A stretch of DNA of 64,000 nt, from the NCBI GenBank assembly GCA_963765675.1, contig CAVXXK010000001.1:2376613-2440612 (forward strand), given 5' to 3'. How positions within the stretch are numbered: the stretch's first letter is position 1; each line of letters starts with the position of its first letter. A model generated the notes under the pieces. It worked only from the letters and a program-made list of their open reading frames with translations, made no database searches and was not told the origin of the DNA. This stretch comes from an uncultured delta proteobacterium. GTDB lineage: Bacteria; Desulfobacterota; Binatia; Binatales; Binataceae. This document shows positions 2,403-63,429 of this stretch, piece by piece. A program made the translations under genes and the position numbers.

Positions 2403-2493
2403 GCGGGACTCCTCTTCGCGGTCGATTCAAGTATAGCGTGTCCGCGCGCCCGGGGCATCGGGGGGTAGCGCGCGGATGGGCGATCATGAGAAT

Positions 2494-2871: not shown

Positions 2872-3123
2872 CAGTTCGTAAGGACGAGGGTTCGACGCAT
2901 CTTATCTCCGTCGTCTTCTGCATCCTATCTCACTCATTTCTATAACGCTTTTTTGACGGTGGGTTCGTTCCCGGGATTTTGCGCATCGCGTCGGGGGAGA
3001 GTGTCCGGAAATGCTGAGGAATTATGTAAAAACCAAGAGTTCGTTTTGATCGCCGCATATCGAGAATTTCTGGCTCCTCGCCCTGTAGAGGCTGTCAATT
3101 TTCCTCGCAGAAGCTCAGTTGGT

Positions 3124-3231
3124 GTCATCCTGAGCCGCAGGCGAAGGATCTCCGCGAAGCGATTAGTGCAACCAACCCTGGCTCTTCGCACTAATCGCTT
3201 CGCGGAGATCCTTCACTTCGTTCAGGATGAC
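3124..3231 (+). repeat. ~108-bp palindromic element with GTCATCCTGA...TCAGGATGAC termini (copy 1)
   Basis: Long imperfect inverted repeat (gaaggatctccgcgaagcgattagtgc / gcactaatcgcttcgcggagatccttc); the first ~50 nt are identical to the reverse complement of the copy at 50327-50444. Confidence 0.92.
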
Positions 3232-3257
3232 GGACAAGAACTCGCCATTTATCGACA

Positions 3258-3410
3258 CCCTCCCGTAAGCGAGAGGTTGGGTGAGGGTCCTTTTTCAGCG
3301 CGACGCGCGAGCGGTGCGCGACTATAGAACTGTCCACGACCGTGGCGGCACGACGAGTTATCCGGCATCGGTCCCTCACCTGGCCTCTCCCTGACAGGGA
3401 GAGGAACCAG
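3258..3410 (+). repeat. BoxC-like element (GAGAGG...GGTGAGGG / CCCTCACC...CCTCTCCC), module B
   Basis: Termini and internal ttcagcgcg..cgc segment match 8541-8713 and the reverse complement of 52140-52316. Confidence 0.85.
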
Positions 3411-3433
3411 ATAAGAGAGCCACTGTGCGGCGC

Positions 3434-5368
3434 TCAATCTTTCCAGAGATTGTTGGCGGCGTACTTCAGGACTACGTCCACGCAGGATTCGCAGTAGCCG
3501 TTCTCGAGGAGGTTCTTGACCATCGCGCTGTACTTCTCGCCCTGCTCCTCGTCGCGGGTGCGGGCCTTGGTGATGATGCGCGAGATGTCGCGGACCGAGG
3601 TCATCAGCTTCTTCTCGATCGCTTCTTTAAGCGGCTCGTAGCTCTTGTAGCTGACCTTCTCGCCGCGGCGCGAGGTCGCCCACAGATACGCGATCACTTC
3701 CTGGCGGAAGCCGTCGGCCGCCGAGCCGATAATCGCGATCTGCTCTTCGATCGATTTGAGGAAGCCCTCGTCGGGCGACAGCTCTTCCTTGGTGTTGCGA
3801 TCGCGGACCTTGGTCTTGTTGACGTAGGCCTCGGCGTGGTCGAGATAGTTCTGGAACAGCGATTCGGCCTGCTCCTGGTAGGAGTAGACGAACGCGCGCG
3901 TAATCTCCTTTTCCAGCAGCTCCAGATATTCCTTGTGCAGCGTGTCCTGCAGCAGTTCGAGGTATGCCTTGCGCGTGTCGTCGGGGAGGTCGGCTTCCTT
4001 GGTCATCGCGATCAGCGACTCGCGCACGTTGATCGGATTGATGCAGTTGCCGCTGACGTTGTCGGAAAGCGCGTTGTCGAGCGCCTTCATGATGAATCGG
4101 GTCGAGATGCCGTTCATCCCTTCGCGCTTGGTGTCTTCCTTCAGCTCCTGCACGTCGATCTTCTTGGTGCGTCCCTTCTCGACCACTTCCTCTCCGTTGT
4201 AGAGCCGGAGCTTGGTCATCAGATCGCACTTCGAGGTCGGTTCGAGCCGCGAGAGGATCGCGAACATCGAGGCGAGCTCGAGCGTGTGCGGCGCGACGTG
4301 CGCGCGGAAGTCGGAGTTGCGGATGATCTTCAGATAGATCTTCACCTCTTCCGACAGGCGCAGATTGTACGGAACCTTGACTACGACGATTCGGTCGAGG
4401 ATCGCCTCGTTGGTGTGGTCGGCCTTGAACTTCTGCCATTCGGCTTCGTTCGAGTGGGCGACGATCGTCGTATCGACATAGACCATCCCATGGCGTCCGG
4501 GCGCCGGGATGACTTTCTCCTGCGTCGCGGTGATCATCGCGTGCAGGTATTCGGTTTCGTTCTTGAAGACTTCGATAAACTCGACCACGCCGCGGTTGCC
4601 GACGTTGAGCGCGCCGTTGAGTTCGAGCACACGCGGGTCGCCTTCGGAATATTGGTCGAGCTTCGAGATATCTTCGCTGCCGATCAGGACCGAGGTGTCC
4701 TGATTGTTCGGGTCGACCGGCGGAACGACGCCCACGCCGACGCGGTTGCGCTTCGAGAAGCTCTTGGTCTCGATCGGAAATTCTTCGTAGCGCTGATTGA
4801 ACTCGACCTTCAGGCGATAGCGGCAGACCGGGCACAGGTCGCCCTCGATATGCACCCCGAGCATCTTCTCGAACTCGCGCCGCAGATGGCGCGGGATCAG
4901 ATGCAGCGGCTCCTCGTGCATCGGGCATCCTTCGATGCTGTAGATCACCCCGGTCTGTTCGAGTCCGCGCTGAAGGCGCTCGACCAGCGAGGATTTGCCC
5001 GATCCGACCGGCCCCATCAGGTACAGGACCTGGCGCGATTCCTCGCCCTTGAGCGAGGCGGAATGGAAGTAGCGTACGATTTGCGAAATCGTCCGCTCGA
5101 TTCCGAAAAACTCTTCCGAGAAGAATCCGAACACCTTTACCGGCTCGTCCTTGTACAGCCGCTTGGTGCGCGGATCGTCGCTCTCCTGGATGCTGCGCGA
5201 GCCCGACGCGGTGATCATGTCGTAGATGCGCGCGTGGGAAAGCTTGGTGATAGTCGGATCGGCCTTGACCAGTTCGAGATAGGCAAGCAGCGTTCCGCTC
5301 CACTTTTCAGATTCGCGGGCGGCGCGGTCTTCTTTGATTACGCGTTCGAAGTGATTGGGTTCAGCCAT
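3434..5368 (-). CDS. prkA: PrkA/YeaG family AAA+ serine protein kinase
   Basis: FFGIERTISQIVRYF, Walker A GPVGSGKSS, GCPMHEEPLHLIP, YSEGDPR, NRGVVEFIEVFK, AHSNEAEW, NEAILDR. Confidence 0.96.
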   Translation of the reverse strand: MAEPNHFERVIKEDRAARESEKWSGTLLAYLELVKADPTITKLSHARIYDMITASGSRSIQESDDPRTKRLYKDEPVKVFGFFSEEFFGIERTISQIVRYFHSASLKGEESRQVLYLMGPVGSGKSSLVERLQRGLEQTGVIYSIEGCPMHEEPLHLIPRHLRREFEKMLGVHIEGDLCPVCRYRLKVEFNQRYEEFPIETKSFSKRNRVGVGVVPPVDPNNQDTSVLIGSEDISKLDQYSEGDPRVLELNGALNVGNRGVVEFIEVFKNETEYLHAMITATQEKVIPAPGRHGMVYVDTTIVAHSNEAEWQKFKADHTNEAILDRIVVVKVPYNLRLSEEVKIYLKIIRNSDFRAHVAPHTLELASMFAILSRLEPTSKCDLMTKLRLYNGEEVVEKGRTKKIDVQELKEDTKREGMNGISTRFIMKALDNALSDNVSGNCINPINVRESLIAMTKEADLPDDTRKAYLELLQDTLHKEYLELLEKEITRAFVYSYQEQAESLFQNYLDHAEAYVNKTKVRDRNTKEELSPDEGFLKSIEEQIAIIGSAADGFRQEVIAYLWATSRRGEKVSYKSYEPLKEAIEKKLMTSVRDISRIITKARTRDEEQGEKYSAMVKNLLENGYCESCVDVVLKYAANNLWKD

Positions 5369-52316: not shown

Positions 52317-52332
52317 CAGTAGGGCGAGGGAT

Positions 52333-52367
52333 AAAAAAGGGCGGCCCTTCTGCGGCCGCCCTTTTTT
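52333..52367. terminator. Bidirectional rho-independent terminator
   Basis: aaaaaagggcggcc-cttctgc-ggccgccctttttt between convergent genes. Confidence 0.9.
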
Positions 52368-52389
52368 GCGCTGAATCGCGGTGTGCTCT

Positions 52390-53718
52390 CTAATAATAAT
52401 CGACCGGGTCGATTTGGCGCTTGGCGCCGTACCAGAAGAGCATGTTCTCAGTCAGTCCCTGCCAGGTGAACTTGTTCGGCGGCAACAGCAGCCGCTTGAA
52501 CATCGACTTGAACGAATAGAATTCCTTGGTGCAGCGCCATACACCTTCTTCGACTTCCTGCGGCGACATGTTCTTGGGCACGAACATGCAGCGGAAGTTG
52601 TTGGTGTACAGGTCGGCATCCGGGATGATCACGCGGCCCTCGTTTTCGAGCTGCGTGCGCATCGGGGTGCCGCGTCGCGGCGTGACGGTGTTGAAGAACG
52701 CCTCCGGGGCGCGGACTTCGTGCAGGAACTTCATCGTCTCGTCGAAGATGCCGGGGCGATCTTCTTCGAGTCCGAACAGGAAATTCAACGAGTAGTAGAT
52801 TCCATACTTTTCGAGCTTCTTCAGGAGCTTTTTGTACTGATTGGCGTGGTTCTGAATCTTGTTCATCGACAGCAGCGAGTCCTGGCTGATCGATTCCACG
52901 CCGATATTGACGTGGAAGATTCCGGCCTTGGCCGCAAGGTCGAGCAGCTCGTCGTCATGATTCGAGTTGATCGTCCATAGGCACGAGAAGCGGATATTCA
53001 GCGGTTCGAGCGCCTTGAACAGCTCGCGCGCGAACTTGTGCTTGCCGGTGATCTGATCGTCGATAAACTGGAAGCGCCGGAAGCCCGTTATCTTGATGAC
53101 TTCCTTCATCTCCTCGACGATGTCCTCGATCGGCCGGGTCCGGTAACTGCCGTCATAGAACACCGGAATCTCGCAGAAGGAGCATCGGTAGGGGCATCCG
53201 CGGCTCGCCTGCACCGGGACCGCCTTAAACAGATATTTGTTGAGCTTCAGAAGCTCGTGGCGCGGACGCGGCAGGTTCTTCAAGTCGTGAACCTTGGTGG
53301 ACTTGTAAACCTGCTTGAGCTTGCCGTCGCGCCAATCCTGCAGGAGCTCGGGCCACACCAGGTCGGCCTCGCCCTGCACGACGGCGTCAGCGTGATGGAG
53401 AGCCTCTTCGGTCTGGAGGGTTGCGTGGAAGCCGCCGAGGACCACCGGGATTCCGCGCTTGCGGAATTCGTCGCCGAGCTGATAGGCGCGCAGCGATGCG
53501 CCGATCGTGGTGGTCATCCCGACCAGATCCCATCCGCCGTCGAAGTTGATGTCCTCGAGGCGCTCGTCGCACAAGGTTACGTCGTATTCCGCGGGAGTGA
53601 GTCCCGCCATCAGCGGAATCATCAGTCCCATGATGAGCCGCCACCGGGTTTTATGCGGAGTACCGTCCAGATGGATGGTCGTAGGCTGTACCAGCAGGAT
53701 CCTGGGTTTCTTGTTCAT
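52390..53718 (-). CDS. Cobalamin-binding-domain radical SAM protein
   Basis: DLVGMT, PVVLGGFHAT, GEAD, SRGCPYRCSFC (CxxxCxxC), FIDD, GVES, TPRRGT. Confidence 0.93.
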   Translation of the reverse strand: MNKKPRILLVQPTTIHLDGTPHKTRWRLIMGLMIPLMAGLTPAEYDVTLCDERLEDINFDGGWDLVGMTTTIGASLRAYQLGDEFRKRGIPVVLGGFHATLQTEEALHHADAVVQGEADLVWPELLQDWRDGKLKQVYKSTKVHDLKNLPRPRHELLKLNKYLFKAVPVQASRGCPYRCSFCEIPVFYDGSYRTRPIEDIVEEMKEVIKITGFRRFQFIDDQITGKHKFARELFKALEPLNIRFSCLWTINSNHDDELLDLAAKAGIFHVNIGVESISQDSLLSMNKIQNHANQYKKLLKKLEKYGIYYSLNFLFGLEEDRPGIFDETMKFLHEVRAPEAFFNTVTPRRGTPMRTQLENEGRVIIPDADLYTNNFRCMFVPKNMSPQEVEEGVWRCTKEFYSFKSMFKRLLLPPNKFTWQGLTENMLFWYGAKRQIDPVDYY

Positions 53719-53779
53719 GTCCTCTCTCCGACGAAAATTCCGTCGTTCAATCTCCCGCATGACCTATAGAAAAAGGTGA

Positions 53780-54963
53780 CTAAGCCGGCCGCGCATCCGG
53801 GCCCGGATTCTCCGGCGCCTTGCGAGCGACCAGCCACATCAGGCCAATAGCGAACACGTAGGTTCCGAACGCGGTCCCCCACGCGAACCATTCGATTCGA
53901 TTTATCAAGGCCAGCACGACCAGCAGATAGGCGAAGTCGCGCCCGCTCCATCGGTCAACCGCTTCGAGCCACTTCTCCGCAACGTCTCCGCGCAGCGAAA
54001 ACGCGCGGTAGGTCGCGTACGAGCACGCTCCAAAGCCACCCAGCACCAATATAGTTAGCCACAGATATGCGATACTTCCGCTCGCCCGGTAGCATCCCAC
54101 GTAGATGCCGATAAAGACCGCGACGTGCACGATATTATCGGTCACGACGTCGAGCTTGCCCCCAAAATTGGTTTCGCTCATCTTGAGTCGCGCCAATTCA
54201 CCGTCCACGCCGTCGAGCGTGATCGAGACGAGAAACAGAATCGCCGCCGCCAGCCGCGACCAGTAACCCGGTATCGCGAACATCCATCCGCAGGTGAGGC
54301 CGAGGATCGTATTTGCGATCGTGACTTGATTCGGGGTGATAGCCGTCCGCGCCAGGCGCAGGCTGAGCCGCCACGAAAGCTTGCGATCGACCCATCGCGC
54401 CATCGGCGCGTCCTTCGCCGCGGTCTCGCGCCGCAGGGATCGGGCAAGCCGCACTTCCGCTTCCTCGCGATCTTCGGGGCGTCCGTTCAGTGCGTAGGGC
54501 AGGTCGCCCATAGGCCTGCGAAATTGGTCGGCATTGACGATTCCGCCTCGGCGCAGCAGTTCCGCACACGGTCCGGCTGCGATCTCTCCGCCATGGTCCG
54601 AGTCCGAGGTCGTCAGGCGGACGATCGTGCCGGGCTTGTCGGCGGCTTCGGCCAGCACCTGTTCAAGTTGTGACTTAAAGAACACAAGGTTTCCGGACAG
54701 CGCGATACAGGCGACCGTAGGATCGATCTGCGCGCGCTCAGCGACTTGGGCATCAAGGTGATCAACCAAGGTTATTGTAGGATTGCTCTTAAAGCGTCCG
54801 AGCGAGGCTTCGATTTCCGCGCGCCGCGCGGGGGAGCCTCGACGATGAAGCGGCTGATTCCGGCGCGCTCGCACGAAATTATCAGCCGTTCCAGAAGTGG
54901 CCGGCCAAAAATCCGATTGTCGGCGCGCGATGGAGCGGCGATTAGTGCCGTTTCTGTACTCAA
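53780..54963 (-). CDS. CDP-alcohol phosphatidyltransferase with degenerate N-terminal nucleotidyltransferase-like domain, frameshifted near 54832
   Basis: ITPNQVT, LDGVDGELARLK.SETNFGGKLDVVTD signature. The N-terminal IFGRPLLERLIISCERAGI is in the 54772..55008 frame; the shift is at a C5 run; TTG start inferred. Confidence 0.85.
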
Positions 54964-55320
54964 TGTCTTATAGAACCCGGTTTCCCAATAGACTGTCCGG
55001 CTGGTCAAGGTAACATGCCGGTAACTCCACTGCTAGAAGCCCCCCTTCAAAATCTTCACCCTGTTTATGAGCCATCCTGCTTGAACCGGGACGCAATCGG
55101 CCGTCGCAGGACCTATTCGTTTTGCCACGATGCGCAAGAAATCTAACCTTGTCTGGCTTCGATTTCGGAAAAGTAGGCCTCCGGCGAAGGATTTAGGGCG
55201 CAAGCGCCGTCATGTCAAATCGGTTAAATCCTCGCTCTGCCAGGCGCAACCCGAATGCTGCCTAGTGACGACATCGGGGCGCTGGTAAACTCCATCAGTC
55301 ACGATGGATCACGTACGGGA

Positions 55321-56061
55321 ATGATTACCACGCTCCTTTTTGATTTCGGCAGCACGCTCGATGGGCCTACATACTGGCTCGATCGTTTCGTAGCGCAGTA
55401 TCGTGCAGCCGAAATACCGATCACGCGCGCCGAGCTCGATCCGGCCTACGAACATGCGCGCCAAGCGACCGTACGCGCCCGCCGGGTGGTTGAACGGTTC
55501 GGTTTCACGGAACTAATCCGGATGCTCGTGGGGCAGCAGATCGAATTCCTGGCGGAGTCGGGACCGGAAGCAGTTCGTGCGACGCTGCGCGCGCTCGATT
55601 CGCGCGGGCGCTATCGCACAGGCGAGCGAATCACCGCGTTGTTCGTCGAGCAATCGCGCTCAGCAATGGAAAAGAGCCGGGCGGTTCTAGCAGCGCTCAA
55701 GGCGCGCTACCGGATCGGCGTCGTCTCGAATTGGTACGGCAATCTTGATCGGATTATCGCCGAGGCCGGGATGGCGAAGCTCGTGAGCACCGTCGCCGAT
55801 TCGGCGCGCCTCGGCTTCGGAAAGCCCGATCCGCGAATCTTCCTGGCAGCGCTGAAATCGCTTGGAGCCGTGCCCGCCGACGCCGCGATGATCGGGGATT
55901 CGCTCGAAAAAGATTGCATGCCCGCTCACGCGCTCGGGCTTAAGACTGTTTGGTATCGCCCGGTCTCCGACGATGCTAATGCGGACCCGCGCCGCGACGG
56001 ATCGGTGTCGGCGGATCACGTCGTCGCTAACCTGGAAGAGCTGGTGGAGCTTTCGCTATGA
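55321..56061 (+). CDS. HAD-family hydrolase
   Basis: LLFDFGSTLD, GVVSNWYGN, KPDPRIF, MIGDSLEKDCMPA..LGLKT. Confidence 0.9.
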   Translation: MITTLLFDFGSTLDGPTYWLDRFVAQYRAAEIPITRAELDPAYEHARQATVRARRVVERFGFTELIRMLVGQQIEFLAESGPEAVRATLRALDSRGRYRTGERITALFVEQSRSAMEKSRAVLAALKARYRIGVVSNWYGNLDRIIAEAGMAKLVSTVADSARLGFGKPDPRIFLAALKSLGAVPADAAMIGDSLEKDCMPAHALGLKTVWYRPVSDDANADPRRDGSVSADHVVANLEELVELSL

Positions 56062-56765
56062 GCGCGTTCCAGGGTGCGATAATCGCAGCCGGGCGCGGCG
56101 AGCGTCTGCGCGCGACCGGCGGCGCGAATATCCCGAAGCCACTGGTCGAGGTCGGCGGCGTCCCGATGCTCGTACGGCAGGCTCGTGCGATGCTTGCAGT
56201 TGGCGCGGCCGAAGTGTTGGCCGTGATCAACCGAGAGACGGCGGCGCTGGCCGGCAGGCTCGAGCTTCCGCGCGAGCTGAAGATCATCGTGCGCGACACT
56301 GAATCCTCGATGGAATCGCTATTCACGCTGGGCGAATCGCTGCGCCCGGGACATTTCCTTTTGGCGACCGTGGATGCGATTCTCCCATCCGCCGAGTTCG
56401 CGCGCTTCACGCGCGAGGCGCAGACCGCGTGCGTCGGAGAGGGGTACGACGGAGCGTTGGCGGTCGTGAAATGGCGCGGCGACAAGAAACCGCTTTTCAC
56501 GCACGCGTCACCTTCGGGGTTGATCGAGGAGCTGGGCGAGCGTCCGGCGCCGATCGTGACTGCGGGAGTGTACTGGCTGCCTACTGCTATCTTCTCGCTC
56601 GCCGAAACCGCACGTGCGCGCAAGCTTGAAGCGATGCGCGCGTTTTTGGCGATGTTGCTGGCGAACCGTTTTCGGTTGCGTGCGATCGAAGTCACCGGCG
56701 CGGTCGATATCGACGAAGCCGCCGATCTCGACGCGGCGCGCCGCCAGGTGGAGGATCGACGATGA
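56058..56765 (+). CDS. Nucleotidyltransferase (NTP_transferase; sugar/polyol-phosphate cytidylyltransferase-like)
   Basis: AIIAAGRGERL, PKPLVEVGG, TESSMES, LATVDA, TAGVY, VDIDEAADL; ATGA-coupled to both neighbours. Confidence 0.88.
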   Translation: MSAFQGAIIAAGRGERLRATGGANIPKPLVEVGGVPMLVRQARAMLAVGAAEVLAVINRETAALAGRLELPRELKIIVRDTESSMESLFTLGESLRPGHFLLATVDAILPSAEFARFTREAQTACVGEGYDGALAVVKWRGDKKPLFTHASPSGLIEELGERPAPIVTAGVYWLPTAIFSLAETARARKLEAMRAFLAMLLANRFRLRAIEVTGAVDIDEAADLDAARRQVEDRR

Positions 56766-57604
56766 GTCATCGTGCCCTTGGAATTTACCGCGAACCCGAG
56801 TTCTCTCCGGGCAAGGTCGAAGCCGACGCCGCAATACTTGATCTGGTGCTGGCCGAGCTTAAGCGTGAAGGACTCGAGACGGAATCGATTGATGCGCGCG
56901 CGTATGCGGCCGGCACCGGAGTAGCCAGCGCCGACATTATCCTTGCGATGTGCCAGGGCGAAAACGCGCTGCGCCGTCTGGCCGACGCCGAACGGGCCGG
57001 TGCCAAAGTGATCAACTCCGCGCTCGCGATCCGCAATTGCTATCGAGATCTGCTGGCGCCCGGCCTGGCGCGCGCCGGCGTGCCTACCCCTCCGGGAGCG
57101 TTGGTCGCGACCGGAACGGCGCTCGACCCGCGGAAGCTTGCGGGAGTCGACCTCGGCGCGCCGGTGTTCATCAAGCGCGGCGATCTGCATGCGCTCGGAC
57201 CCGAGGACGTGCAGCGTGCCGCGGGGCGCGCCGACACCGAGGCGCGGCTGATGACATTCGCGCGGCGGGGAATTCGCTACGCCTATGTGCAGCAGGAATT
57301 TCCCGGCTCGGTGATCAAATTCTATGGCGTCAGTGGTGGTTCGTATTTCTCCGCGTTGCCGGAATCGGGCGACGTGCCAGAGGCTGCCGTGCTCGCGCTC
57401 GCCGATGCGGCTCACACCGCCGCCGCCGCGCTCGGGCTCGAGGCGTGGGGCGGAGACGCAGTCTTGAGCGGAGACAGGTTTGCGATTATCGATTTTAACG
57501 ACTGGCCCAGCTATGGCAGAGTGCGCGCCGCCGCCGCACGCGCGATCGCGCGCCGCGCAATTGCGATCCTCTCGCGTCCGCGTCCCGCCGCGCATAGCAT
57601 CTGA
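56762..57604 (+). CDS. ATP-grasp fold protein of unknown function
   Basis: KVINS, GVPTP, PVFIKRGDLH, VQQEFPG..IKFYGV, LGLEAWGGD, IIDFNDWPSY. Confidence 0.8.
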   Translation: MSHRALGIYREPEFSPGKVEADAAILDLVLAELKREGLETESIDARAYAAGTGVASADIILAMCQGENALRRLADAERAGAKVINSALAIRNCYRDLLAPGLARAGVPTPPGALVATGTALDPRKLAGVDLGAPVFIKRGDLHALGPEDVQRAAGRADTEARLMTFARRGIRYAYVQQEFPGSVIKFYGVSGGSYFSALPESGDVPEAAVLALADAAHTAAAALGLEAWGGDAVLSGDRFAIIDFNDWPSYGRVRAAAARAIARRAIAILSRPRPAAHSI

Positions 57605-57663
57605 GGGTCACGCGTCGGAACTTACGCGACTGAATCGAGGAAGGACTAAACTTACACGACCTG

Positions 57664-59022
57664 ATGGCATCCAACGGCAAACTACCCTCTATCCGCACCT
57701 CGGTGCCCGGACCCAAATCGACCGAGATCTTTAACCAAGAGCAGCGCTATATCGCGCCGGGGCGTCAGCGAATTTCGCTGCTGGCCGGCGTTGCCTTCGA
57801 TCACGGCGACGGCGCCACGCTGACCGACGCCGACGGCAACACCTATGTCGACTTCTATGCCGGGGTCGCGGTTGCGAGCCTCGGGCACGGAAATCCGCGG
57901 CTGGCGCAGGCGCTTGCCAAACAGGCCGAGCGGCTGATCGTCGGAACATTTGCGACCAAGGAGCGCGCCGAAGCGTTTCGCCTGCTCTCGGAAGCTGGTC
58001 CGGGAAACCTGAAACAAGCGCATCTCTATAGCGGCGGTGCAGAGGCGGTCGAGGCTGCGCTCCGGCTTGCGCGTTCTGTCACCAAGAAGCATGAGGTGGT
58101 TGGTTTCTGGGGCGGCTTTCACGGCAAGACGATGGGCGTGCTCGGACTTATCGGCGACGAATCCAAGCAGGGCTATGGTCCGCTTCCGGGAGGCCGCTAC
58201 CAGGTGCCGTATGCCGATTGCTACCGATGTCCGCTGAAGCTCGAATATCCGTCATGCGGACTCGCGTGCGTGGATTTCGCGCGTCAGCAAATCAAGAATT
58301 CCTCGGCCGGCGACGTCGCTGCGATCCTGGTCGAGCCGATGCAGGGCACCGCCGGCAATGTGATTCCTCCCGACGATTGGCTGCCTGCGATCAAGTCTGT
58401 GGCGAAAGACCTGGGCGCGCTGCTGATTGCCGACGAGATGATCACCGGCTTCGGCCGCACTGGAAAGATGTGGGGCGTCGAGCATAGCGGCGTTGCGCCC
58501 GACGCGATCACGGTCGGTAAGGGGATGGGCTCGGGCTTTCCGGTTTCTGGCGTTCTGCTGAGCAAGGAAATTGGCACCGCGGAACCGTTCGGCAAGCCCA
58601 GCGCGTCGTCTTCGAGTTACGGCGGAAATCCGCTGGCCGCGGTCGCCGTGTCGGAGACGCTCAAGACTATCCGCGACGAAAAGCTGGTCGAAAATTCGCG
58701 CACCGTCGGCGCCTCGATACTCTCTCGCCTGCGCCAGCTTCAGGAGAAATACGAATTTATCGGCGACGTGCGCGGCAAGGGTCTGCTGATCGGTGTCGAG
58801 CTGGTGCGCGATCTGAAAACCAAAGAGCTGCTCGGAAAGAAAGTCACCGAATTTATTTTCAAAGAAACGCTGAAGCGCGGACTGGTGACGATGAGCTACT
58901 TTCCGCGCATCCGGATCAATCCGCCGCTCGTGATCACCGAGGCGCAGGCCGAAGCGGGCGTCGCGATTCTGGACGAAGTCTTCGCCGAGGTCCGCGATCA
59001 CATCGATTGGCGCGCCGCCTGA
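57664..59022 (+). CDS. Class III PLP-dependent aminotransferase
   Basis: DADGNTYVDF, SGGAEAVEAA, FHGKT, EPMQG, LIADEMITGFGRTG, VGKGMGSG, YGGNP, VRGKGL. Confidence 0.94.
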   Translation: MASNGKLPSIRTSVPGPKSTEIFNQEQRYIAPGRQRISLLAGVAFDHGDGATLTDADGNTYVDFYAGVAVASLGHGNPRLAQALAKQAERLIVGTFATKERAEAFRLLSEAGPGNLKQAHLYSGGAEAVEAALRLARSVTKKHEVVGFWGGFHGKTMGVLGLIGDESKQGYGPLPGGRYQVPYADCYRCPLKLEYPSCGLACVDFARQQIKNSSAGDVAAILVEPMQGTAGNVIPPDDWLPAIKSVAKDLGALLIADEMITGFGRTGKMWGVEHSGVAPDAITVGKGMGSGFPVSGVLLSKEIGTAEPFGKPSASSSSYGGNPLAAVAVSETLKTIRDEKLVENSRTVGASILSRLRQLQEKYEFIGDVRGKGLLIGVELVRDLKTKELLGKKVTEFIFKETLKRGLVTMSYFPRIRINPPLVITEAQAEAGVAILDEVFAEVRDHIDWRAA

Positions 59023-59031
59023 GAAGCCGCG

Positions 59032-59505
59032 ATGAACGAAAACGGCAATGCCGCGCTGTTCCTTGATCTCGGCGGCACCCTGGTTCGCCTCGACGAGTCG
59101 CGCGAACTTCCGATCGACGCGCACGGCAATATCGTCATCGATCTGCTGCCCGGCGTCGCGGAAAAGCTCGCCCCGATGCACGATCATCTGATTCTGGTCG
59201 TGACCAATCAGTCCAAGATCAAGCGCGGACGTTTTACGATGGCGTCATTCGAGCGTGCGATGGAGGAGCTCGACCGCAAGCTCGGCGATATCATTACCGG
59301 GTGGAAGGTCTGCCCGCACGACGACGCCGACAACTGCCAATGCCGCAAACCCAAGGGCGGCATGATCACCGAGCTGGCCGAGCTCTACGGCGTGGACCTG
59401 AAATCCTCGACGATGGTCGGCGATCAGGAGGTCGACGAGCAGGCCGGTCGCGCCGCCGGAGTAGGGCGCTTCGTCCACGCGAAAGATTTCTTCGGCTGGC
59501 CCTAG
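59032..59505 (+). CDS. HAD-IIIA hydrolase (GmhB/HisB-like)
   Basis: LFLDLGGTL, VVTNQS, CPH....CQCRKPKGGM, MVGDQEVD. Confidence 0.87.
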   Translation: MNENGNAALFLDLGGTLVRLDESRELPIDAHGNIVIDLLPGVAEKLAPMHDHLILVVTNQSKIKRGRFTMASFERAMEELDRKLGDIITGWKVCPHDDADNCQCRKPKGGMITELAELYGVDLKSSTMVGDQEVDEQAGRAAGVGRFVHAKDFFGWP

Positions 59506-59812: not shown

Positions 59813-60664
59813 ATGAAGATCGGACTGCTCACTCCCTTCAGCGGACGTAATGGAAATCCGGGCGAGTTTGCGCGAATCGCGGAATCGCTCGGCTACGAAT
59901 CGGTCTGGATCCCGGAGCATCCGGCAGTGCCCGCGAATCCCACGACCAAGTTTCCCGCCGGCGGCGAGATTCCGCCGATCTATTTCTCGATGGGCGATCA
60001 GATCGTCGCGCTCAGCATGGCGGCGGCGACCACCAAATCGCTCAAGCTCGCAACCGGAATCTGCCTCGTGCCGGAACATAATCCGGTCGCACTTGCGAAC
60101 CAGGTCGCGACGCTCGACGCATTTTCCGGCGGCAGGGTTATTTTCGGAATCGGCGCGGGATGGCTGCGCGAGGAATGCGATCTCTTCGCGGTCGATTTTC
60201 CCAAACGATGGACGCAGACGCGCGAATATATCGCCGCGATGCGCGAGTTGTGGATTCACGACGAAGCCGCGTTCGACGGCAAGTACATCAAGTTTCCAGC
60301 GGTCAAGTGCTCCCCCAAGCCCGCGCAGAAAAATGGTCCGCCAGTCATTATCGGCAGCCTGGATAAGAACGCGCTCAAGCGGGTGGCGAAATGGGGCGAC
60401 GGATGGTGCCCGATCCGCGTGACGCCCGAGTTCATGAGCGAGAAGCTGGCCGAGCTGAAACGCGAATGCGCCGCCGCCGACCGTGATTTCGCGCGGCTCG
60501 ATATTACCGTCATGGGATTTGTCCAGGGCGATCGCGCCAAGGTGCAATCCGAGCTTGCGCGCTTTGCCGCGACCGGCGTCTCGCGCTTCGTCGTGGGACT
60601 GTCGGACTTCACCCCCGACACGATGCCGAAGATGCTCGAGCGAATCGCCGCCGCATACGTCTGA
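59813..60664 (+). CDS. LLM-class (probably F420-dependent) oxidoreductase
   Basis: AESLGYESVWIPEH, KLATGI, ATLDAFSGGRVIFGIGAGW..EE, PKPAQ, RVAKWGDGW. Confidence 0.92.
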   Translation: MKIGLLTPFSGRNGNPGEFARIAESLGYESVWIPEHPAVPANPTTKFPAGGEIPPIYFSMGDQIVALSMAAATTKSLKLATGICLVPEHNPVALANQVATLDAFSGGRVIFGIGAGWLREECDLFAVDFPKRWTQTREYIAAMRELWIHDEAAFDGKYIKFPAVKCSPKPAQKNGPPVIIGSLDKNALKRVAKWGDGWCPIRVTPEFMSEKLAELKRECAAADRDFARLDITVMGFVQGDRAKVQSELARFAATGVSRFVVGLSDFTPDTMPKMLERIAAAYV

Positions 60665-60679
60665 GCGCTCCGAACCGTC

Positions 60680-61915
60680 ATGGCCCTGTATGATGCGCAG
60701 CGGCATGAACCTCTAACCGGTGCGGAGTGGAACGAAGAGCGGACGCGAGCGGCGATCGAAAAAATCGTCGCCGACACTCACGACGCTTTCAGCCCTGCAG
60801 GCCTCTGGCCGCTGCATCCATTCGATCGCTCGCCAGAGAGGCCGCCGGATTCACTCAAGCCTCTCTATCACGGCGCCGCAGGCGTGATCTGGGCGTTGCT
60901 TCATCTCGAAGAAGCCGGCGCGGTAAAAGTTCGGCGTGATTATTTGCCTACGGTGCGCGAGCTGCGCCAGCGAAATCGCGACGACCTGCACAAATACGAA
61001 AGCGTGCGCAAGTACATGGGCGATGAACAGGCGTCTTACCTGGTCGGCGAAACCGGAATTCTTCTGCTCCAATGGAAGCTCGCGCCGTCGGCCGAACTCG
61101 AGGAACAGATCTACGCAGCGGTCGAAGCGAGGATCGGCGATCCGCGCGGACTCGTTTGGGGTGGTGCGGGCATGATGCTCGTTGCGCTCTTTATGCATGA
61201 GCGTACCGGCGATTCGCGCTGGCAGGGATTATTTCTGCGCCACTTCGACGCACTGTGGAATCAATGGGAGTATGCGGATGAACTTCGGTGCCGTGTGTGG
61301 ACCTCCGATCTCTATGGTGTAGCCGACAAGCGCATCGGCGCGCTTCACGGATTCTTTGCCGTCAGCTTTCCATTCCTTCGCGGGCATCACCTTCTGCCTG
61401 CTGACCGCCGGGACGAAGCGCTGCGGCGAATTCATGAGACGTTTCATGCGACCGCTCTTTGCGAAGGAAGCTACGCGAACTGGCCCAACGGTGCCGGGCC
61501 TGCGAGCGGGCGCGCGCCCATACCGTTGCTGGTCCAGCACTGCCTTGGCGCGCCCGGGATTGTCAGCTGCATGACGAATTTTCCGGACGATCGCCGATGG
61601 GAGATCGACACGATCTTGCTGCAAGCGGGGGAGCTGATCTGGCGCGCGGGACCGCCGGTCAAGTTTCCGAGCTTGTGTCATGGAGCCGCCGGCAGTGGCT
61701 ATGCATTTCTGAAGCTCTACGTGCGCACGGGCGAGAGCGTATGGCTGGAGAGGGCGCGCAGATTTGCGATGCACGCGATCGGGCAGTGCGAACGATCAAT
61801 TACGCAATACGGACAGCGCAAGTTTTCGCTCTGGACCGGAGACCTCGGTCTGGCGATCTTTCTTTGGAACTGCATAAAAGGAACTGCGATTTTTCCCACC
61901 CTCGACGTCTTCTAG
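60680..61915 (+). CDS. Stand-alone LanC-like (lanthionine synthetase C-like) protein
   Basis: LYHGAAG, GALHG, QHCLGAPG, SLCHGAAG, WLERARRFA, SLWTGDLG. Confidence 0.88.
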   Translation: MALYDAQRHEPLTGAEWNEERTRAAIEKIVADTHDAFSPAGLWPLHPFDRSPERPPDSLKPLYHGAAGVIWALLHLEEAGAVKVRRDYLPTVRELRQRNRDDLHKYESVRKYMGDEQASYLVGETGILLLQWKLAPSAELEEQIYAAVEARIGDPRGLVWGGAGMMLVALFMHERTGDSRWQGLFLRHFDALWNQWEYADELRCRVWTSDLYGVADKRIGALHGFFAVSFPFLRGHHLLPADRRDEALRRIHETFHATALCEGSYANWPNGAGPASGRAPIPLLVQHCLGAPGIVSCMTNFPDDRRWEIDTILLQAGELIWRAGPPVKFPSLCHGAAGSGYAFLKLYVRTGESVWLERARRFAMHAIGQCERSITQYGQRKFSLWTGDLGLAIFLWNCIKGTAIFPTLDVF

Positions 61916-62405: not shown

Positions 62406-63429
62406 GTGAAGCTGCGCGGAGCAATCTCGGGTTTCGGCGAGGTCGCCGCGCGCGCGCATCTGCCCGGATGGCTGACGCGCGACGCGGTTAGTATCGGCGT
62501 CGTTCATGAACCGGTTTCGGCGCGTCGGCACGAGGCGATGCGGCTCATCAGGAATGTCCGCGTGTACGACGATCTGGAGTTAATGCTGGACGGCGAGTCG
62601 CCTGATTTCGTCGATATCGCAAGTCCGCCCGCGTATCACGCAGCGGCGGCGCGCGCGGCGCTCGAAGCTGATGCGCACGTGATCGTCGAAAAGCCGCTGT
62701 GCCTCGCGCTCGAAGAGTTTGATGCGATCGTCAGAGCTCGCGCGGCGAAAAAATCGCGTCCTGATGTGCGTGCATAACTGGAAGTACGCGCCGGCCTACG
62801 CGCTGGCGCGGCGCATGATCGATGAAGGAAAACTCGGTGCGCCGCGGTTTATCTCGCTCGATCGGATTCGCGCCGAACCCGCCGGCGCGCGGAGCGCTGG
62901 CGGAGCATGGCGCGCCGCGGCCGATTCCGGCGGGGGCATTTTGATTGATCACGGATGGCACGTCTTCTACCTGATGCAATGGCTATTCGGCGGCGATACT
63001 CCGAGCGGGATTTCCGCCTCGCTATCGGCGCCCACTTCCGGCGGCAGCGAAGACGTTGCGGACTTGCGCGTGACGTTTGCTTCGGGGCGCCTCGCCCGTG
63101 CGCATCTGTCGTGGCGCGGTCCGGCGCGCAGAACCTCAGCCATAATTTACGGCGAACTGGGGATGCTCGAGATCGAAGGTGATCGCGTGTCGTTCACCGA
63201 TCGCTCGGGGCGCATCGATGACCTTTCGGTAGCCGATATTCCCGACGACTCGTATCATTCAGCCTGGTTCGCCGGCATCGCGGAAGAGTTTGAGCGCGCG
63301 GTGCAAGCTGGTTCCGATTGCGCTGACGCTCGGGTAAATCTGGCCGAGGCACGCGCCGCGATAGCCATAACCGTCGCAGCGCGCGAATCGGCTCTGAACG
63401 GCGGGGCGACGATTCAAATTGCATTGTGA
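62406..63429 (+). CDS. Gfo/Idh/MocA family oxidoreductase, frameshifted near 62740
   Basis: GFGEVAARAHLP, DFVDIASPP..H, HVIVEKP; then VHNWKYAP, GGGILIDHGWH, SEDVA. Confidence 0.88.

What the first reader, a model, noticed from the sequence alone, without database searches (positions are those of the whole stretch)
52390..59505. Putative inositol-type phospholipid/cyclitol pathway extended with amination and radical-SAM steps
Seen: two divergent operons. Left: CDP-alcohol phosphotransferase and B12-binding radical SAM. Right: coupled HAD, NTP-transferase and ATP-grasp genes, then a class III aminotransferase and HAD-IIIA. A Gfo/Idh/MocA dehydrogenase lies 3 kb downstream. Known: an NTP-transferase plus CDP-alcohol phosphotransferase pair makes CDP-inositol-derived products such as di-myo-inositol phosphate. 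From memory, a HAD/NTP-transferase/CDP-alcohol set also occurs in the alternative inositol-lipid locus of Phocaeicola/Prevotella. Dehydrogenase plus aminotransferase is the standard route to inosamines. Inference: an undescribed amino-cyclitol or otherwise modified lipid headgroup or solute. No inositol-phosphate synthase is in the window.
Basis: partly seen in the sequence, partly recalled or inferred. Interest (0 to 1): 0.8.

Follow-up and report, generated by a model that had tools for sequence, protein, structure and literature searches.

The report
Conserved amino-cyclitol head-group gene cluster
An uncultured soil bacterium (Binataceae) carries a widely conserved but never characterised gene set that most likely builds a nitrogen-bearing, inositol-like phosphate head group for a membrane lipid (or a related solute), extending a pathway so far only proposed for gut Bacteroidetes.

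Summary
They form two divergent operons: CDP-alcohol phosphotransferase then B12-type radical SAM, and HAD, NTP-transferase, ATP-grasp-like ORF, class III aminotransferase, HAD-IIIA. This is not a chance neighbourhood. In 80 related loci from at least eight phyla, the HAD/NTP-transferase/ATP-grasp trio recurs with a CDP-alcohol phosphotransferase, and the trio is fused into one protein in some genomes. The short form in Bacteroidales matches the published, unconfirmed "alternative inositol lipid cluster". The long form adds aminotransferase plus Gfo/Idh/MocA dehydrogenase, and in five loci it sits beside myo-inositol-phosphate synthase. Binataceae add their own radical SAM and HAD-IIIA. In Binataceae and Syntrophobacteraceae the cluster lies among hopanoid side-chain genes (HpnH, SHC; HpnI/J/K/B). 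Best reading: a CDP-activated, aminated cyclitol phosphate head-group pathway. Still open are the acceptor (glycerolipid, hopanoid or soluble), the true substrate (no inositol synthase in the window or the 34 Binataceae-type loci), and whether the ATP-grasp protein is a kinase or a ligase. The window's dehydrogenase is frameshifted. No structure prediction could be run. I rate it a new variant of a known kind.

The parts
52390..53760 (-). B12-binding-type radical SAM enzyme (456 aa), second gene of the CDP-AP operon (19-nt gap). It belongs to an unnamed family.
   Evidence: Radical_SAM 70 bits. B12-binding 28.3 bits, below the 32.1 cutoff. CxxxCxxC at residue 189. All NCBIfam hits are below cutoff: BchE 103 bits, HpnJ 81.5 against a cutoff of 577.6. 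Best PDB match is AprD4 (6fd2) at 8.3e-11. A copy at 60% identity or more is present in 29 of 34 Binataceae-type loci. Median identity to the window is 91%, against 58% for the neighbouring CDP-AP. Homologues of 52-59% identity occur in Geobacter, Geotalea, Geomonas, Nitrospirota and Desulfobaccales; six homologues tested (Geobacter, Geotalea, Nitrospirota, Desulfobaccales, Binatia) reached no NCBIfam cutoff.
53780..54874 (-). CDP-alcohol phosphotransferase, 'type a': an N-terminal cytosolic extension of about 170 aa plus a membrane domain of about six helices.
   Evidence: PF01066 54 bits. The signature D221..D246 is intact. Best PDB matches are AF2299 at 1.2e-16 and IPCT/DIPPS at 4.7e-10. 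About 118 residues follow the motif, as in six-TM enzymes. Present in 30 of 34 Binataceae-type loci.
54875..55254 (.). 380-bp divergent intergenic region between the two operons.
   Evidence: Sequence read. No promoter-like or Rfam feature above chance. In five related loci an MlaC/HpnM-like gene lies here.
55255..56061 (+). HAD-IA-type hydrolase (268 aa) with the non-canonical motif I, D-x-G-G-T.
   Evidence: Pfam Hydrolase and HAD_2. Asp+2 is Gly in all 26 aligned orthologues. It overlaps the next gene by ATGA. It is fused to NTP-transferase and ORF5 in P0186.
56058..56765 (+). Sugar/polyol-phosphate nucleotidylyltransferase (235 aa).
   Evidence: NTP_transf_3 48 bits. G-R-G-E-R loop at residue 12. 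Best PDB match is MurU at 3.1e-6. IPCT/DIPPS N-terminal match at 3.2e-6, below cutoff. The domain is fused N-terminally to ORF5 in 6 of 6 long family members examined.
56762..57604 (+). ORF5: a divergent ATP-grasp-fold protein (280 aa), the signature gene of the cluster. Whether it is a kinase or a ligase is unresolved.
   Evidence: No Pfam or NCBIfam hit. The family has 874 representative clusters at E<=1e-3. The profile hits PDB ATP-grasp proteins, ITPK4/ITPK1 and RimK. K138, D232 and N246 are invariant and D244 nearly invariant. Atlas neighbours carry the RimK and Ins134_P3_kin families.
57664..59022 (+). Class III (GABA-AT-like) PLP aminotransferase (452 aa).
   Evidence: Aminotran_3 322 bits. 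No equivalog cutoff is reached. Best PDB match is 7vno at 8.2e-74. Orthologues in other phyla are 49-73% identical (median 54%), the best-conserved shared gene.
59032..59505 (+). HAD-IIIA hydrolase (157 aa), GmhB/HisB-N-like with a Cys/His loop. Motif I is D-L-G-G-T. A Binataceae-specific addition.
   Evidence: TIGR01656 at 89.3 bits (cutoff 84.15) and TIGR01662 at 72.5 bits (cutoff 44.6). Present in 31 of 34 Binataceae-type loci and 0 of 46 others. Motif shown.
59813..60664 (+). F420-dependent LLM-class oxidoreductase. Possibly an accessory gene.
   Evidence: TIGR03619 at 238 bits against a cutoff of 166.9. Present in 19 of 34 Binataceae-type loci and 0 of 46 others.
62406..63429 (+). Gfo/Idh/MocA dehydrogenase, split by a 1-nt insertion near 62733 relative to L001.
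   Evidence: The Pfam N and C domains fall on two overlapping ORFs. Frames and alignment to L001. L001 has an intact 340-aa ORF. Start codon located. Orthologues lie next to, or one gene from, the aminotransferase in other phyla.

Best explanation
The locus is the Binataceae version of a conserved, multi-phylum head-group pathway.

Proposed mechanism:
1. A cyclitol phosphate, most likely inositol phosphate, is re-positioned and activated by the HAD / ATP-grasp / NTP-transferase trio. This is a phosphatase + kinase + nucleotidyltransferase logic. Its product is a CDP-linked cyclitol.
2. A Gfo/Idh/MocA dehydrogenase and the class III aminotransferase convert one ring hydroxyl to an amine, giving an inosamine-type group.
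3. The membrane CDP-alcohol phosphotransferase forms the phosphodiester.
4. The co-transcribed B12-type radical SAM enzyme and the extra HAD-IIIA remodel or trim the product.

The end product is most likely an amino-cyclitol phosphate head group of a membrane lipid.

Shown here: gene identities at family level, intact catalytic motifs, conserved synteny, gene fusions, and linkage to MIPS, lipid-transport, sphingolipid and hopanoid genes in relatives.

Inferred: the substrate, the order of steps, a kinase role for ORF5, the nucleotide used, and the acceptor.
For: Core module. NTP->ORF5 are adjacent in 68 of the 74 loci that hold both, and HAD->NTP in 52 of 68. All six long family members examined carry NTP_transf_3 in front of ORF5, and one also carries HAD. 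The window genes overlap by ATGA.

Link to inositol.
- The CDP-AP scores best against inositol-phosphate enzymes.
- MIPS lies in 13 of 46 non-Binataceae loci. Five of these are of the aminotransferase+dehydrogenase type, with the order NTP-MlaE-MlaF-MlaD-ORF5-AT-CDP-AP-Gfo-flippase-like-HAD-MIPS.
- The short form equals the published putative alternative inositol lipid cluster (PMC9246714).
- The Gfo orthologue of L037 scores best against IolG, at 91 bits, below cutoff.

Amination pair. Aminotransferase and Gfo are present together in 21 of 46 loci and absent together in 20. The aminotransferase follows ORF5 in 57 of the 59 loci that hold both.

Lipid context in relatives.
- An LPG_synthase_TM/HpnL-like flippase-like gene in 20 of 46 loci.
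- Mla genes and a TolC-like gene.
- An Spt-like aminotransferase and a sphingolipid desaturase in Verrucomicrobiota loci.
- A PAP2_3 gene in Duncaniella.

ORF5 is an ATP-grasp protein with ITPK-like C-terminal motifs.
Against: - No MIPS in the window or in any of the 34 Binataceae-type loci.
- The window's CDP-AP has the AF2299/DIPPS architecture: an N-terminal domain, about six TM helices and about 118 residues after the motif. Clarke et al. tie this architecture to soluble acceptors. The Bacteroidales/Ignavibacteria type has about 85 more C-terminal residues.
- No flippase-like or Mla gene lies in the window itself.
- Both HAD proteins lack the Asp+2 general acid of canonical phosphatases.
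- The Gfo gene is frameshifted in the window. It lies within 10 kb in only 12 of the 24 fully flanked Binataceae-type loci.
- ORF5's full-length PDB similarity is to ligase-type ATP-grasp proteins (7drm, RimK). Its ITPK similarity covers only the last 50-70 residues.
- Class III aminotransferases mostly act on terminal aldehydes (my own knowledge, not a call).
- No structure model could be made, and there is no biochemical evidence anywhere.
Confidence: 0.5

Rival explanations
1. Soluble product. The pathway makes a di-inositol-phosphate-like or glycerophospho-inositol-like phosphodiester solute, here aminated. It would work as in IPCT/DIPPS plus a phosphatase: NTP-transferase makes the CDP-polyol, the six-TM CDP-AP couples it to a second soluble polyol phosphate, and a HAD enzyme removes the terminal phosphate.
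For: The closest characterised relatives are AF2299 and IPCT/DIPPS. According to Clarke et al. (PMC4634129, passages), neither processes lipids, and both carry an N-terminal cytosolic domain like the window protein. The six-TM size fits. The parts list (NTase, CDP-AP, phosphatase-like HADs) equals the DIP pathway. No lipid-transport gene lies in the window.
Against: In relatives the same type-a CDP-AP sits in operons with flippase-like, Mla, TolC-like and hopanoid genes (L038, L053, L041, L062). DIP-type solutes are known from hyperthermophiles (my knowledge), whereas these are soil and sediment MAGs. All family scores are far below the equivalog cutoffs.
Confidence: 0.18
2. Hopanoid-linked. 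In Binataceae and Syntrophobacteraceae the module decorates, or supplies a head group for, bacteriohopanepolyols, alongside or instead of the HpnI/K/J cyclitol-ether route. The radical SAM enzyme would play an HpnJ-like carbocycle-remodelling role.
For: - L040 operon: HpnJ-HAD-NTP-ORF5-AT-Gfo-HpnL-like-TolC-like-HpnN-like-HpnM-like-HpnI. HpnI scores 327.6 bits against a cutoff of 310.
- L038: HpnK at 328.8 bits (cutoff 232.6), HpnJ at 761.5 (cutoff 577.6) and HpnB at 405.1 (cutoff 379.25), beside Gfo-CDP-AP-flippase-like.
- An HpnJ-type radical SAM gene is present in 7 of 46 non-Binataceae loci.
- In Binataceae-type loci, HpnH appears in 11 of 34 and SHC in 9 of 34, just downstream of Gfo/TetR. 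The window ends in that TetR gene.
- The flippase-like and MlaC-like genes score best against HpnL and HpnM, below cutoff.
Against: The cluster also occurs in Bacteroidota and Ignavibacteriota loci with MIPS and no hopanoid genes. The window's radical SAM enzyme is not HpnJ: 81.5 bits against 577.6, about 25% identity. I know of no phosphate-linked hopanoid. The two hopanoid papers I searched by passages do not mention such a cluster. Synteny within one phylum is weak evidence.
Confidence: 0.2
3. The logic is the same but the polyol differs. In Binataceae the substrate is not inositol but another sugar or polyol phosphate, for example a hexosamine or an amino-pentitol. The aminotransferase would act on an aldehyde, and the radical SAM enzyme, not MIPS, would form or modify the carbon skeleton.
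For: MIPS is absent from the window and from all 34 Binataceae-type loci. The NTP-transferase's best solved relatives are sugar-1-P enzymes: MurU and GDP-mannose pyrophosphorylases. The GABA-AT-like aminotransferase subgroup typically handles terminal aldehydes (my knowledge). HpnJ and calditol synthase make cyclitols from hexoses (PMC13459092, passages).
Against: MIPS may lie elsewhere in the genome; I could not check this. Orthologous aminotransferase and Gfo genes share operons with MIPS in five loci. The CDP-AP's family affinities are to inositol-phosphate enzymes.
Confidence: 0.15
4. The genes are ordinary, unrelated housekeeping genes (arginine or GABA aminotransferase, PgsA-like synthase, a generic phosphatase) that merely lie together.
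For: Every gene scores below the curated cutoff of every named family, so none has an assigned function. JGI names the CDP-AP 'phosphatidylglycerophosphate synthase'.
Against: Order and adjacency are conserved across at least eight phyla. Gene fusions exist. The aminotransferase is 49-73% identical across phyla only within this context.
Confidence: 0.02

Closest known systems
Putative 'alternative inositol lipid cluster' of Bacteroides (Phocaeicola) vulgatus and Prevotella (Heaver et al. 2022, PMC9246714; passages read)
   Same: Homologous NTP-transferase, HAD hydrolase and CDP-alcohol phosphotransferase. Prevotellaceae and Muribaculaceae loci with the order NTP-ORF5-CDP-AP-HAD(-MIPS) were retrieved with the window's ORF5 family.
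   Different: The published description names three genes and is unconfirmed. Its main text never mentions the ATP-grasp gene, an aminotransferase or a radical SAM enzyme (supplements not read). The window has a different CDP-AP subtype (type a rather than b) and no MIPS. It adds an aminotransferase, a Gfo dehydrogenase, a radical SAM enzyme, a HAD-IIIA and an F420 oxidoreductase.
Di-myo-inositol-phosphate pathway (IPCT/DIPPS) and AF2299 of Archaeoglobus fulgidus
   Same: A CDP-polyol is made by a nucleotidyltransferase and used by a six-TM CDP-AP with an N-terminal cytosolic domain. These are the best PDB and NCBIfam matches.
   Different: The score is 73.5 bits against a cutoff of 580. The NTase is a separate gene. 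Homology of the N-terminal domain to an NTase was inconclusive (hhalign probability 12%). The window has extra amination and radical SAM genes. The host is a bacterial soil lineage.
Mycobacterial / B. thetaiotaomicron PIP-synthase route (CDP-DAG + inositol phosphate, then a PIP phosphatase)
   Same: A six-TM CDP-AP related to the window protein (PIPS 50.1 bits; PDB 6h53 at 3.2e-5), followed by a phosphatase step.
   Different: That route needs no soluble NTP-transferase or ATP-grasp enzyme. Its phosphatase is PgpA-like, not HAD.
[quoted passage not shown]
   Same: An amino-cyclitol head group on a lipid, made with a B12-type radical SAM enzyme. True HpnJ, HpnI, HpnK and HpnB genes are interleaved with the cluster in relatives. 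The flippase-like and MlaC-like genes resemble HpnL and HpnM.
   Different: The hopanoid head group is ether-linked and derived from GlcNAc, with no CDP-alcohol chemistry (PMC13459092). The window's radical SAM enzyme fails the HpnJ cutoff.
Phosphatase + kinase + nucleotidyltransferase activation logic (MupP/AmgK/MurU; HldE/GmhB); recalled, not tested
   Same: The same trio of activities and a frequent kinase-NTase fusion. MurU is the NTP-transferase's best PDB hit. GmhB is the HAD-IIIA's best NCBIfam hit.
   Different: The kinase here would have an ATP-grasp fold. Both HADs lack Asp+2. The substrates are unknown.
Inosamine routes of aminocyclitol natural products (streptomycin, hygromycin A, rhizopine); recalled
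   Same: An inositol dehydrogenase of the Gfo/Idh/MocA family followed by transamination.
   Different: As I recall, those aminotransferases belong to the DegT/StsC type, not class III. Their products are secondary metabolites, not CDP-activated head groups.

Membership tests
IPCT/DIPPS (NF041135) / DIP pathway | Score at or above the curated equivalog cutoff | tested here: not met
   73.5 bits against a cutoff of 580. Only the CDP-AP half aligns (residues 151-351).
IPCT/DIPPS (NF041135) / DIP pathway | CDP-AP signature D1xxD2GxxAR...GxxxD3xxxD4 | tested here: met
   Residues 221-246, DGVDGELARLKMSETNFGGKLDVVTD.
IPCT/DIPPS (NF041135) / DIP pathway | N-terminal cytidylyltransferase(-like) cytosolic domain fused to six TM helices | tested here: inconclusive
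   An extension of about 170 aa and a six-TM-sized membrane part are present. hhalign against the cluster's NTP-transferases gave probability 12% and E 0.0024. No structure model could be made.
IPCT/DIPPS (NF041135) / DIP pathway | Inositol-phosphate supply (MIPS) in the genome or locus | tested here: not met
   None in the window and none in the 34 Binataceae-type loci. The rest of the genome could not be searched.
Alternative inositol lipid cluster (Heaver 2022) | NTP-transferase + CDP-AP + HAD hydrolase clustered | tested here: met
   All three are in the window. They are homologous at 25-42% identity to those of Bacteroidales-type loci.
Alternative inositol lipid cluster (Heaver 2022) | Directly beside MIPS | tested here: not met
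Alternative inositol lipid cluster (Heaver 2022) | Same CDP-AP subtype | tested here: not met
   The two types form separate clusters, a and b. BLASTP similarity is limited to 83 residues at 34% identity. Type b lacks the N-domain, has about 203 residues after the motif against about 117, and usually an altered fourth Asp.
Alternative inositol lipid cluster (Heaver 2022) | Produces PI-type lipids | not testable with these tools
   This is unconfirmed even for the published cluster.
ATP-grasp superfamily (ORF5) | Significant profile similarity to solved ATP-grasp enzymes over the nucleotide-binding core | tested here: met
   Alignment A2 against the PDB: 7drm at 1.6e-7 (residues 60-267) and RimK-like 7qyr at 1.6e-4 (residues 69-270). 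Pfam itself gives no hit.
ITPK (Ins134_P3_kin, PF05770) inositol-phosphate kinases | Family model match over the full domain | tested here: not met
   No Pfam hit. Only the last 50-70 residues align to ITPK4 and ITPK1, at E 4.3e-6 and 1.6e-4. Atlas neighbours bearing PF05770 are a lead only.
HpnJ (TIGR03471) | Score at or above the equivalog cutoff of 577.6 bits | tested here: not met
   The window's radical SAM enzyme scores 81.5 bits. The operon-linked radical SAM enzymes of L041 and L038 score 739 and 761.5 bits.
Cobalamin-dependent (class B) radical SAM | CxxxCxxC cluster motif plus an N-terminal B12-binding domain | tested here: inconclusive
   The motif is at residue 189. The B12-binding Pfam score is 28.3, below the 32.1 gathering score. 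The highest-scoring NCBIfam relatives are B12-type radical SAM enzymes. The best PDB hit is AprD4.
Canonical HAD phosphatase | Motif I DxDx(T/V), with Asp+2 as general acid/base | tested here: not met
   HAD1 has D-x-G-G-T in 26 of 26 aligned orthologues. HAD-IIIA has D-L-[G/A/T/V]-G-T in 19 of 19. The nucleophile Asp and motifs II-IV are present.
myo-Inositol 2-dehydrogenase IolG (TIGR04380) | Equivalog cutoff of 355 bits and an intact gene | tested here: not met
   The two halves score 31.9 and 25.5 bits. The gene is frameshifted. The L037 orthologue scores 91.4 bits, its best hit but below cutoff.
Class III aminotransferase | Aminotran_3 domain with a PLP-lysine | tested here: met
   322.5 bits. 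The lysine lies in VGKG at residue 286. No substrate-specific equivalog cutoff is reached.

The most novel reading that the evidence does not exclude
Bacteria from many phyla make a so far unrecognised lipid class: amino-cyclitol (inosamine-type) phospholipids. These would be zwitterionic like phosphatidylethanolamine. They would be built through a CDP-cyclitol route whose key unknown enzyme is a new ATP-grasp inositol kinase family. In hopanoid producers (Binataceae, Syntrophobacteraceae), B12-type radical SAM enzymes related to HpnJ would further remodel the head group, or the head group would be attached to bacteriohopanepolyols. That would give phosphate-linked composite hopanoids.
Probability: 0.25. 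Interest if true: 0.85.

Novelty: new variant of a known kind. Interest (0 to 1): 0.68.

Why it matters
Many species descriptions list 'unidentified aminophospholipids', and no gene set is known for cyclitol-amine head groups. If this cluster makes them, it would do three things.

1. It would give a genetic marker for a new polar-lipid class across Binatota, Thermodesulfobacteriota, Gemmatimonadota, Verrucomicrobiota, Ignavibacteriota and Bacteroidota.
2. It would supply the missing, universally conserved fourth gene (the ATP-grasp ORF) of the unconfirmed alternative inositol-lipid pathway of abundant human-gut Bacteroidales.
3. It would connect CDP-alcohol chemistry with hopanoid side-chain genes. 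That bears on how composite hopanoid and intact-polar-lipid biomarkers in soils and sediments are interpreted.

Cultured carriers make the question directly testable: Desulfoferrobacter suflitae DRH4, Olivibacter sitiensis DSM 17696 and Duncaniella muris DSM 103720.

Tried and rejected
- **Structure prediction of ORF5.** Intended with alignment A2 and a PDB fold search. No fold evidence exists, and none is claimed.
- **Atlas search with the window's own ORF5.** This was not possible, so I used the stored homologue P0016. It gave features only, with no structure search.
- **N-terminal domain of the CDP-AP against the cluster's NTP-transferases.** hhalign gave probability 12%, which is inconclusive.
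- **Promoter and terminator scan.** Counts were at chance level: 2 promoter-like sites against 3.0 expected, and 14 terminator-like against 12.1.
- **Rfam.** Only a sub-threshold STnc250 match; no cobalamin or other riboswitch.
- **Phosphonate pathway idea** (PhpK-like radical SAM plus NTase). PhpK-type scores are far below cutoff. No PEP-mutase domain appeared among the 65 window ORFs scanned.
- **Lanthipeptide link.** The LanC-like gene occurs only in the window and in L001, that is 1 of 34 loci.
- **F420 or methanopterin cofactor biosynthesis.** I considered this from memory and found no supporting genes.
- **Binatota genomics paper** (PMC8262859). It has no occurrence of inositol, hopanoid, phospholipid or radical SAM.
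- **Literature searches** for inosamine or amino-inositol lipids (96 papers, 30 listed), for CDP-inositol with ATP-grasp, and for HpnJ with CDP-alcohol. By titles and abstract starts, none describes this cluster. Subscription journals are outside the library.
- **Homology searches with the CDP-AP and the radical SAM enzyme.** The CDP-AP search returned only Binataceae-like proteins.

Full report
**What is in the window**

The window has 58-66% G+C. Named best hits of its proteins come from Candidatus Binataceae / Binatus. The finding's coordinates hold two divergent operons separated by 380 bp.

Leftward operon:
- A CDP-alcohol phosphotransferase (CDP-AP; 53780-54874).
- 19 nt further on, a radical SAM protein with a weak B12-binding match (52390-53760).

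Rightward operon:
- A HAD hydrolase (55255-56061).
- An NTP_transf_3 nucleotidyltransferase (56058-56765).
- A 280-aa ORF without any Pfam or NCBIfam match (ORF5; 56762-57604).
- A class III aminotransferase (57664-59022).
- A HAD-IIIA hydrolase (59032-59505).

The first three rightward genes overlap by ATGA.

Downstream lie:
- An F420-dependent LLM oxidoreductase (59813-60664).
- A LanC-like gene (60680-61915).
- A Gfo/Idh/MocA dehydrogenase (62406-63429).
- The start of a TetR gene.

The dehydrogenase is split by a 1-nt insertion near 62733 relative to the intact gene of the nearest relative, L001. None of 65 ORF translations scanned across the window carries a myo-inositol-phosphate synthase (MIPS) domain.

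**ORF5 is a divergent ATP-grasp protein and the marker of the system**

Its family has 874 representative clusters at E<=1e-3. A 58-sequence profile (A2) matches several solved ATP-grasp proteins:

| PDB match | E-value | Region aligned |
|---|---|---|
| 7drm | 1.6e-7 | residues 60-267 |
| RimK-like ligases | 1.6e-4 | near full length |
| ITPK4 | 4.3e-6 | C-terminal 50-70 residues only |
| ITPK1 | 1.6e-4 | C-terminal 50-70 residues only |

K138, D232 and N246 are invariant and D244 is nearly invariant. Language-model neighbours of a homologue carry RimK and Ins134_P3_kin domains (a lead only).

Among the 150 best representatives, six are long forms. All six have an NTP_transf_3 domain in front of the ORF5 part, and one (802 aa) is HAD + NTP-transferase + ORF5. 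So the three translationally coupled window genes form one functional module.

Whether ORF5 is a kinase or a ligase is open. I favour a kinase for three reasons:
- ORF5 is present in clusters that lack the amination genes.
- The published short cluster is credited with plain phosphoinositol lipids.
- Phosphatase + kinase + nucleotidyltransferase is a familiar activation logic (MupP/AmgK/MurU and HldE/GmhB, both recalled).

I could not obtain a structure model.

**Conservation**

Of these, 594 were confirmed and the best 80 were kept. Thirty-four loci are Binataceae-type. The other 46 come from:
- Syntrophobacteraceae;
- Gemmatimonadota;
- Myxococcota;
- Verrucomicrobiota;
- Ignavibacteriota;
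- Bacteroidota;
- Bdellovibrionota;
- one Bacillota-labelled bin.

The ORF5 tree follows these groups, and the Binataceae clade has SH-aLRT support of 100.

Counts in the 24 Binataceae-type loci with at least 8 kb on both sides:

| Gene | Loci (of 24) |
|---|---|
| HAD | 24 |
| NTP-transferase | 24 |
| Aminotransferase | 24 |
| HAD-IIIA | 24 |
| Radical SAM | 23 |
| CDP-AP | 23 |
| LLM oxidoreductase | 16 |
| Gfo dehydrogenase | 12 |
| MIPS | 0 |

Counts in the 46 other loci, some of them truncated:

| Gene | Loci (of 46) |
|---|---|
| NTP-transferase | 41 |
| HAD | 40 |
| CDP-AP | 36 |
| Aminotransferase | 24 |
| Gfo dehydrogenase | 23 |
| Flippase-like LPG_synthase_TM | 20 |
| MIPS | 13 |

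In those 46 loci, aminotransferase and Gfo occur together in 21. The aminotransferase occurs alone in 3, Gfo alone in 2, and neither in 20. Gene order is tight.

Across phyla the aminotransferase is the best-conserved shared gene, with a median identity of 54% against 31-38% for the others. Within Binataceae the radical SAM enzyme is extraordinarily conserved, at a median of 91% against 58% for the CDP-AP.

**Three layouts**

1. *Short form* (Bacteroidales, some Ignavibacteriota): NTP-ORF5-CDP-AP-HAD(-MIPS). This fits the 'putative alternative inositol lipid cluster' of Heaver et al. That paper names an NTP transferase, a CDP-alcohol phosphatidyltransferase and a HAD hydrolase near MIPS and states that the functions are unconfirmed (PMC9246714, passages). 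Its main text mentions no ATP-grasp gene, aminotransferase or radical SAM enzyme (supplements not read).

2. *Long form:* adds aminotransferase and Gfo directly after ORF5. In five Ignavibacteriota/Bacteroidota loci the operon reads NTP-MlaE-MlaF-MlaD-ORF5-AT-CDP-AP-Gfo-flippase-like-HAD-MIPS. This is the strongest argument that the aminated substrate derives from inositol.

3. *Binataceae form (the window):* the long form plus a private radical SAM family, a GmhB-like HAD-IIIA and often an F420 oxidoreductase. MIPS and the flippase-like gene are not nearby.

**The phosphotransferase**

The window protein has the complete signature motif. It scores best against IPCT/DIPPS, archaetidylinositol-phosphate synthase and PIP synthase, all far below cutoff, and against AF2299 and IPCT/DIPPS in the PDB.

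It has an N-terminal extension of about 170 residues and only about 118 residues after the motif. The Bacteroidales/Ignavibacteria type lacks the extension, has about 203 residues after the motif, and usually has a displaced or missing fourth Asp.

Clarke et al. state three relevant points (PMC4634129, passages):
- AF2299 and AfDIPPS carry an N-terminal cytidylyltransferase-like domain and do not process lipids.
- Six-TM enzymes use soluble acceptors.
- Lipid-acceptor enzymes have extra C-terminal helices.

By that rule the window enzyme takes a soluble acceptor. This keeps a DIP-like soluble product, or a CDP-diacylglycerol donor, in play. Against a purely soluble role, the same subtype sits in operons with flippase-like, Mla, TolC-like and hopanoid genes in L038, L053, L041 and L062.

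In Syntrophobacteraceae-type loci the operon starts with a radical SAM enzyme that passes the HpnJ equivalog cutoff. The scores are 739 and 761.5 bits against a cutoff of 577.6. Five further copies are 68-83% identical.

- L040 continues through an HpnL-like gene, a TolC-like gene, an HpnN-like gene (549 bits, below the 752 cutoff), an HpnM-like gene and a true HpnI (327.6 bits against a cutoff of 310).
- L038 has HpnK and HpnB above cutoff next to Gfo-CDP-AP.
- In Binataceae-type loci, HpnH appears in 11 of 34 and squalene-hopene cyclase in 9 of 34, after Gfo and TetR. The window ends in that TetR gene.

HpnJ and calditol synthase are radical SAM enzymes credited with making cyclopentitol head groups on lipids (PMC13459092, passages).

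The window's own radical SAM enzyme is not HpnJ (81.5 bits, about 25% identity). Its best solved relative is the aminoglycoside diol-dehydratase AprD4 at 8.3e-11. Its family extends at 52-59% identity to Geobacter, Geotalea, Geomonas, Nitrospirota and Desulfobaccales without reaching any named family. What it does is unknown. Methylation, dehydration or ring rearrangement of the head group are the obvious options.

**Unexplained details**

Both HAD proteins keep the nucleophile Asp but replace the Asp+2 general acid. HAD1 has D-x-G-G-T in 26 of 26 orthologues from all phyla. They may therefore act on substrates with good leaving groups, or may not be simple phosphomonoesterases.

Gfo is within 10 kb in only half of the fully flanked Binataceae loci, and it is frameshifted here.

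**Verdict**

The finding is real. It is strongly non-random, and it is homologous to a published but unproven inositol-lipid locus. The window adds amination, radical SAM and hopanoid-linked layers that I did not find described (searches; passages).

The most likely function is synthesis of a CDP-activated, aminated cyclitol phosphate head group. Three things need experiments: the lipid or soluble acceptor, the identity of the polyol in Binataceae, and the chemistry of ORF5 and the radical SAM enzyme.

Noticed in passing
window 62406-63429 (site near 62733): The Gfo/Idh/MocA gene is read in two frames because of a 1-nt insertion relative to the 90%-identical L001, where the ORF is an intact 340 aa. 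This is either a pseudogene or an assembly error.
   Followed up: partly
window 55255-56061 and 59032-59505; orthologues in L001-L080: Both HAD-family proteins lack the Asp+2 general acid of motif I. HAD1 has D-x-G-G-T in 26 of 26 orthologues across phyla. HAD-IIIA has D-L-[G/A/T/V]-G-T in 19 of 19. This is unusual for phosphatases.
   Followed up: partly
window 52390-53760; L003-L034: The radical SAM protein is far more conserved within Binataceae (median 91% identity) than its operon partner, the CDP-AP (58%), or any other cluster gene. It also has 52-59% identical homologues in Geobacter, Geotalea, Geomonas, Nitrospirota and Desulfobaccales.
   Followed up: partly
L037, L045, L049, L054, L056, L059, L063, L065, L074-L076 and others (type-b CDP-AP genes): The Bacteroidota/Ignavibacteriota CDP-AP of the published alternative inositol cluster type mostly lacks the canonical fourth Asp of the family signature. 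Eleven of 26 have none within 3-5 residues, often with Asn instead. Eleven have it one residue late. Only 4 are canonical.
   Followed up: no
window 60680-61915: A stand-alone LanC-like gene lies between the F420 oxidoreductase and Gfo. It is present only in the window and in L001 among the 34 Binataceae-type loci. No lanthipeptide precursor or dehydratase was noticed.
   Followed up: no
window 52328-52428 (-): A sub-threshold Rfam match to the STnc250 Hfq-binding sRNA (35.5 bits against a gathering score of 42, E 7e-4) spans the 3' end of the radical SAM gene. It is probably chance.
   Followed up: no
L046, L047, L061, L064 (Verrucomicrobiota): The long-form cluster lies next to a class I/II aminotransferase (serine-palmitoyltransferase-like) and, in L046, L047 and L061, a fatty-acid desaturase with a sphingolipid delta-4 desaturase domain. 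L046 and L061 carry both CDP-AP subtypes and, with L047, a GNAT gene.
   Followed up: no
L060: This contig is labelled [Ruminococcus] lactaris (Bacillota), but it carries a Muribaculaceae-like short cluster and nests inside the Muribaculaceae ORF5 clade. The bin may be mis-assigned.
   Followed up: no
L053 6529-8499: In one Syntrophobacteraceae locus a sulfotransferase and an O-methyltransferase directly precede the HAD gene. This hints at further head-group decoration.
   Followed up: no
window 8803-30035: A dense set of amine and amide catabolism genes: three amidases, a copper amine oxidase, a carboxylesterase, an M20 peptidase, two Amidohydro_3 proteins and an aldehyde dehydrogenase. Upstream at 1020-5368 lies a PrkA/DUF444 pair. 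These are unrelated to the finding as far as seen.
   Followed up: no
window 56027-57595 (-), 58252-59187 (-), and others: Long antisense ORFs of up to 522 aa overlap the real genes, as expected at this G+C content. They have no family hits and low coding signal, and should not be annotated.
   Followed up: yes
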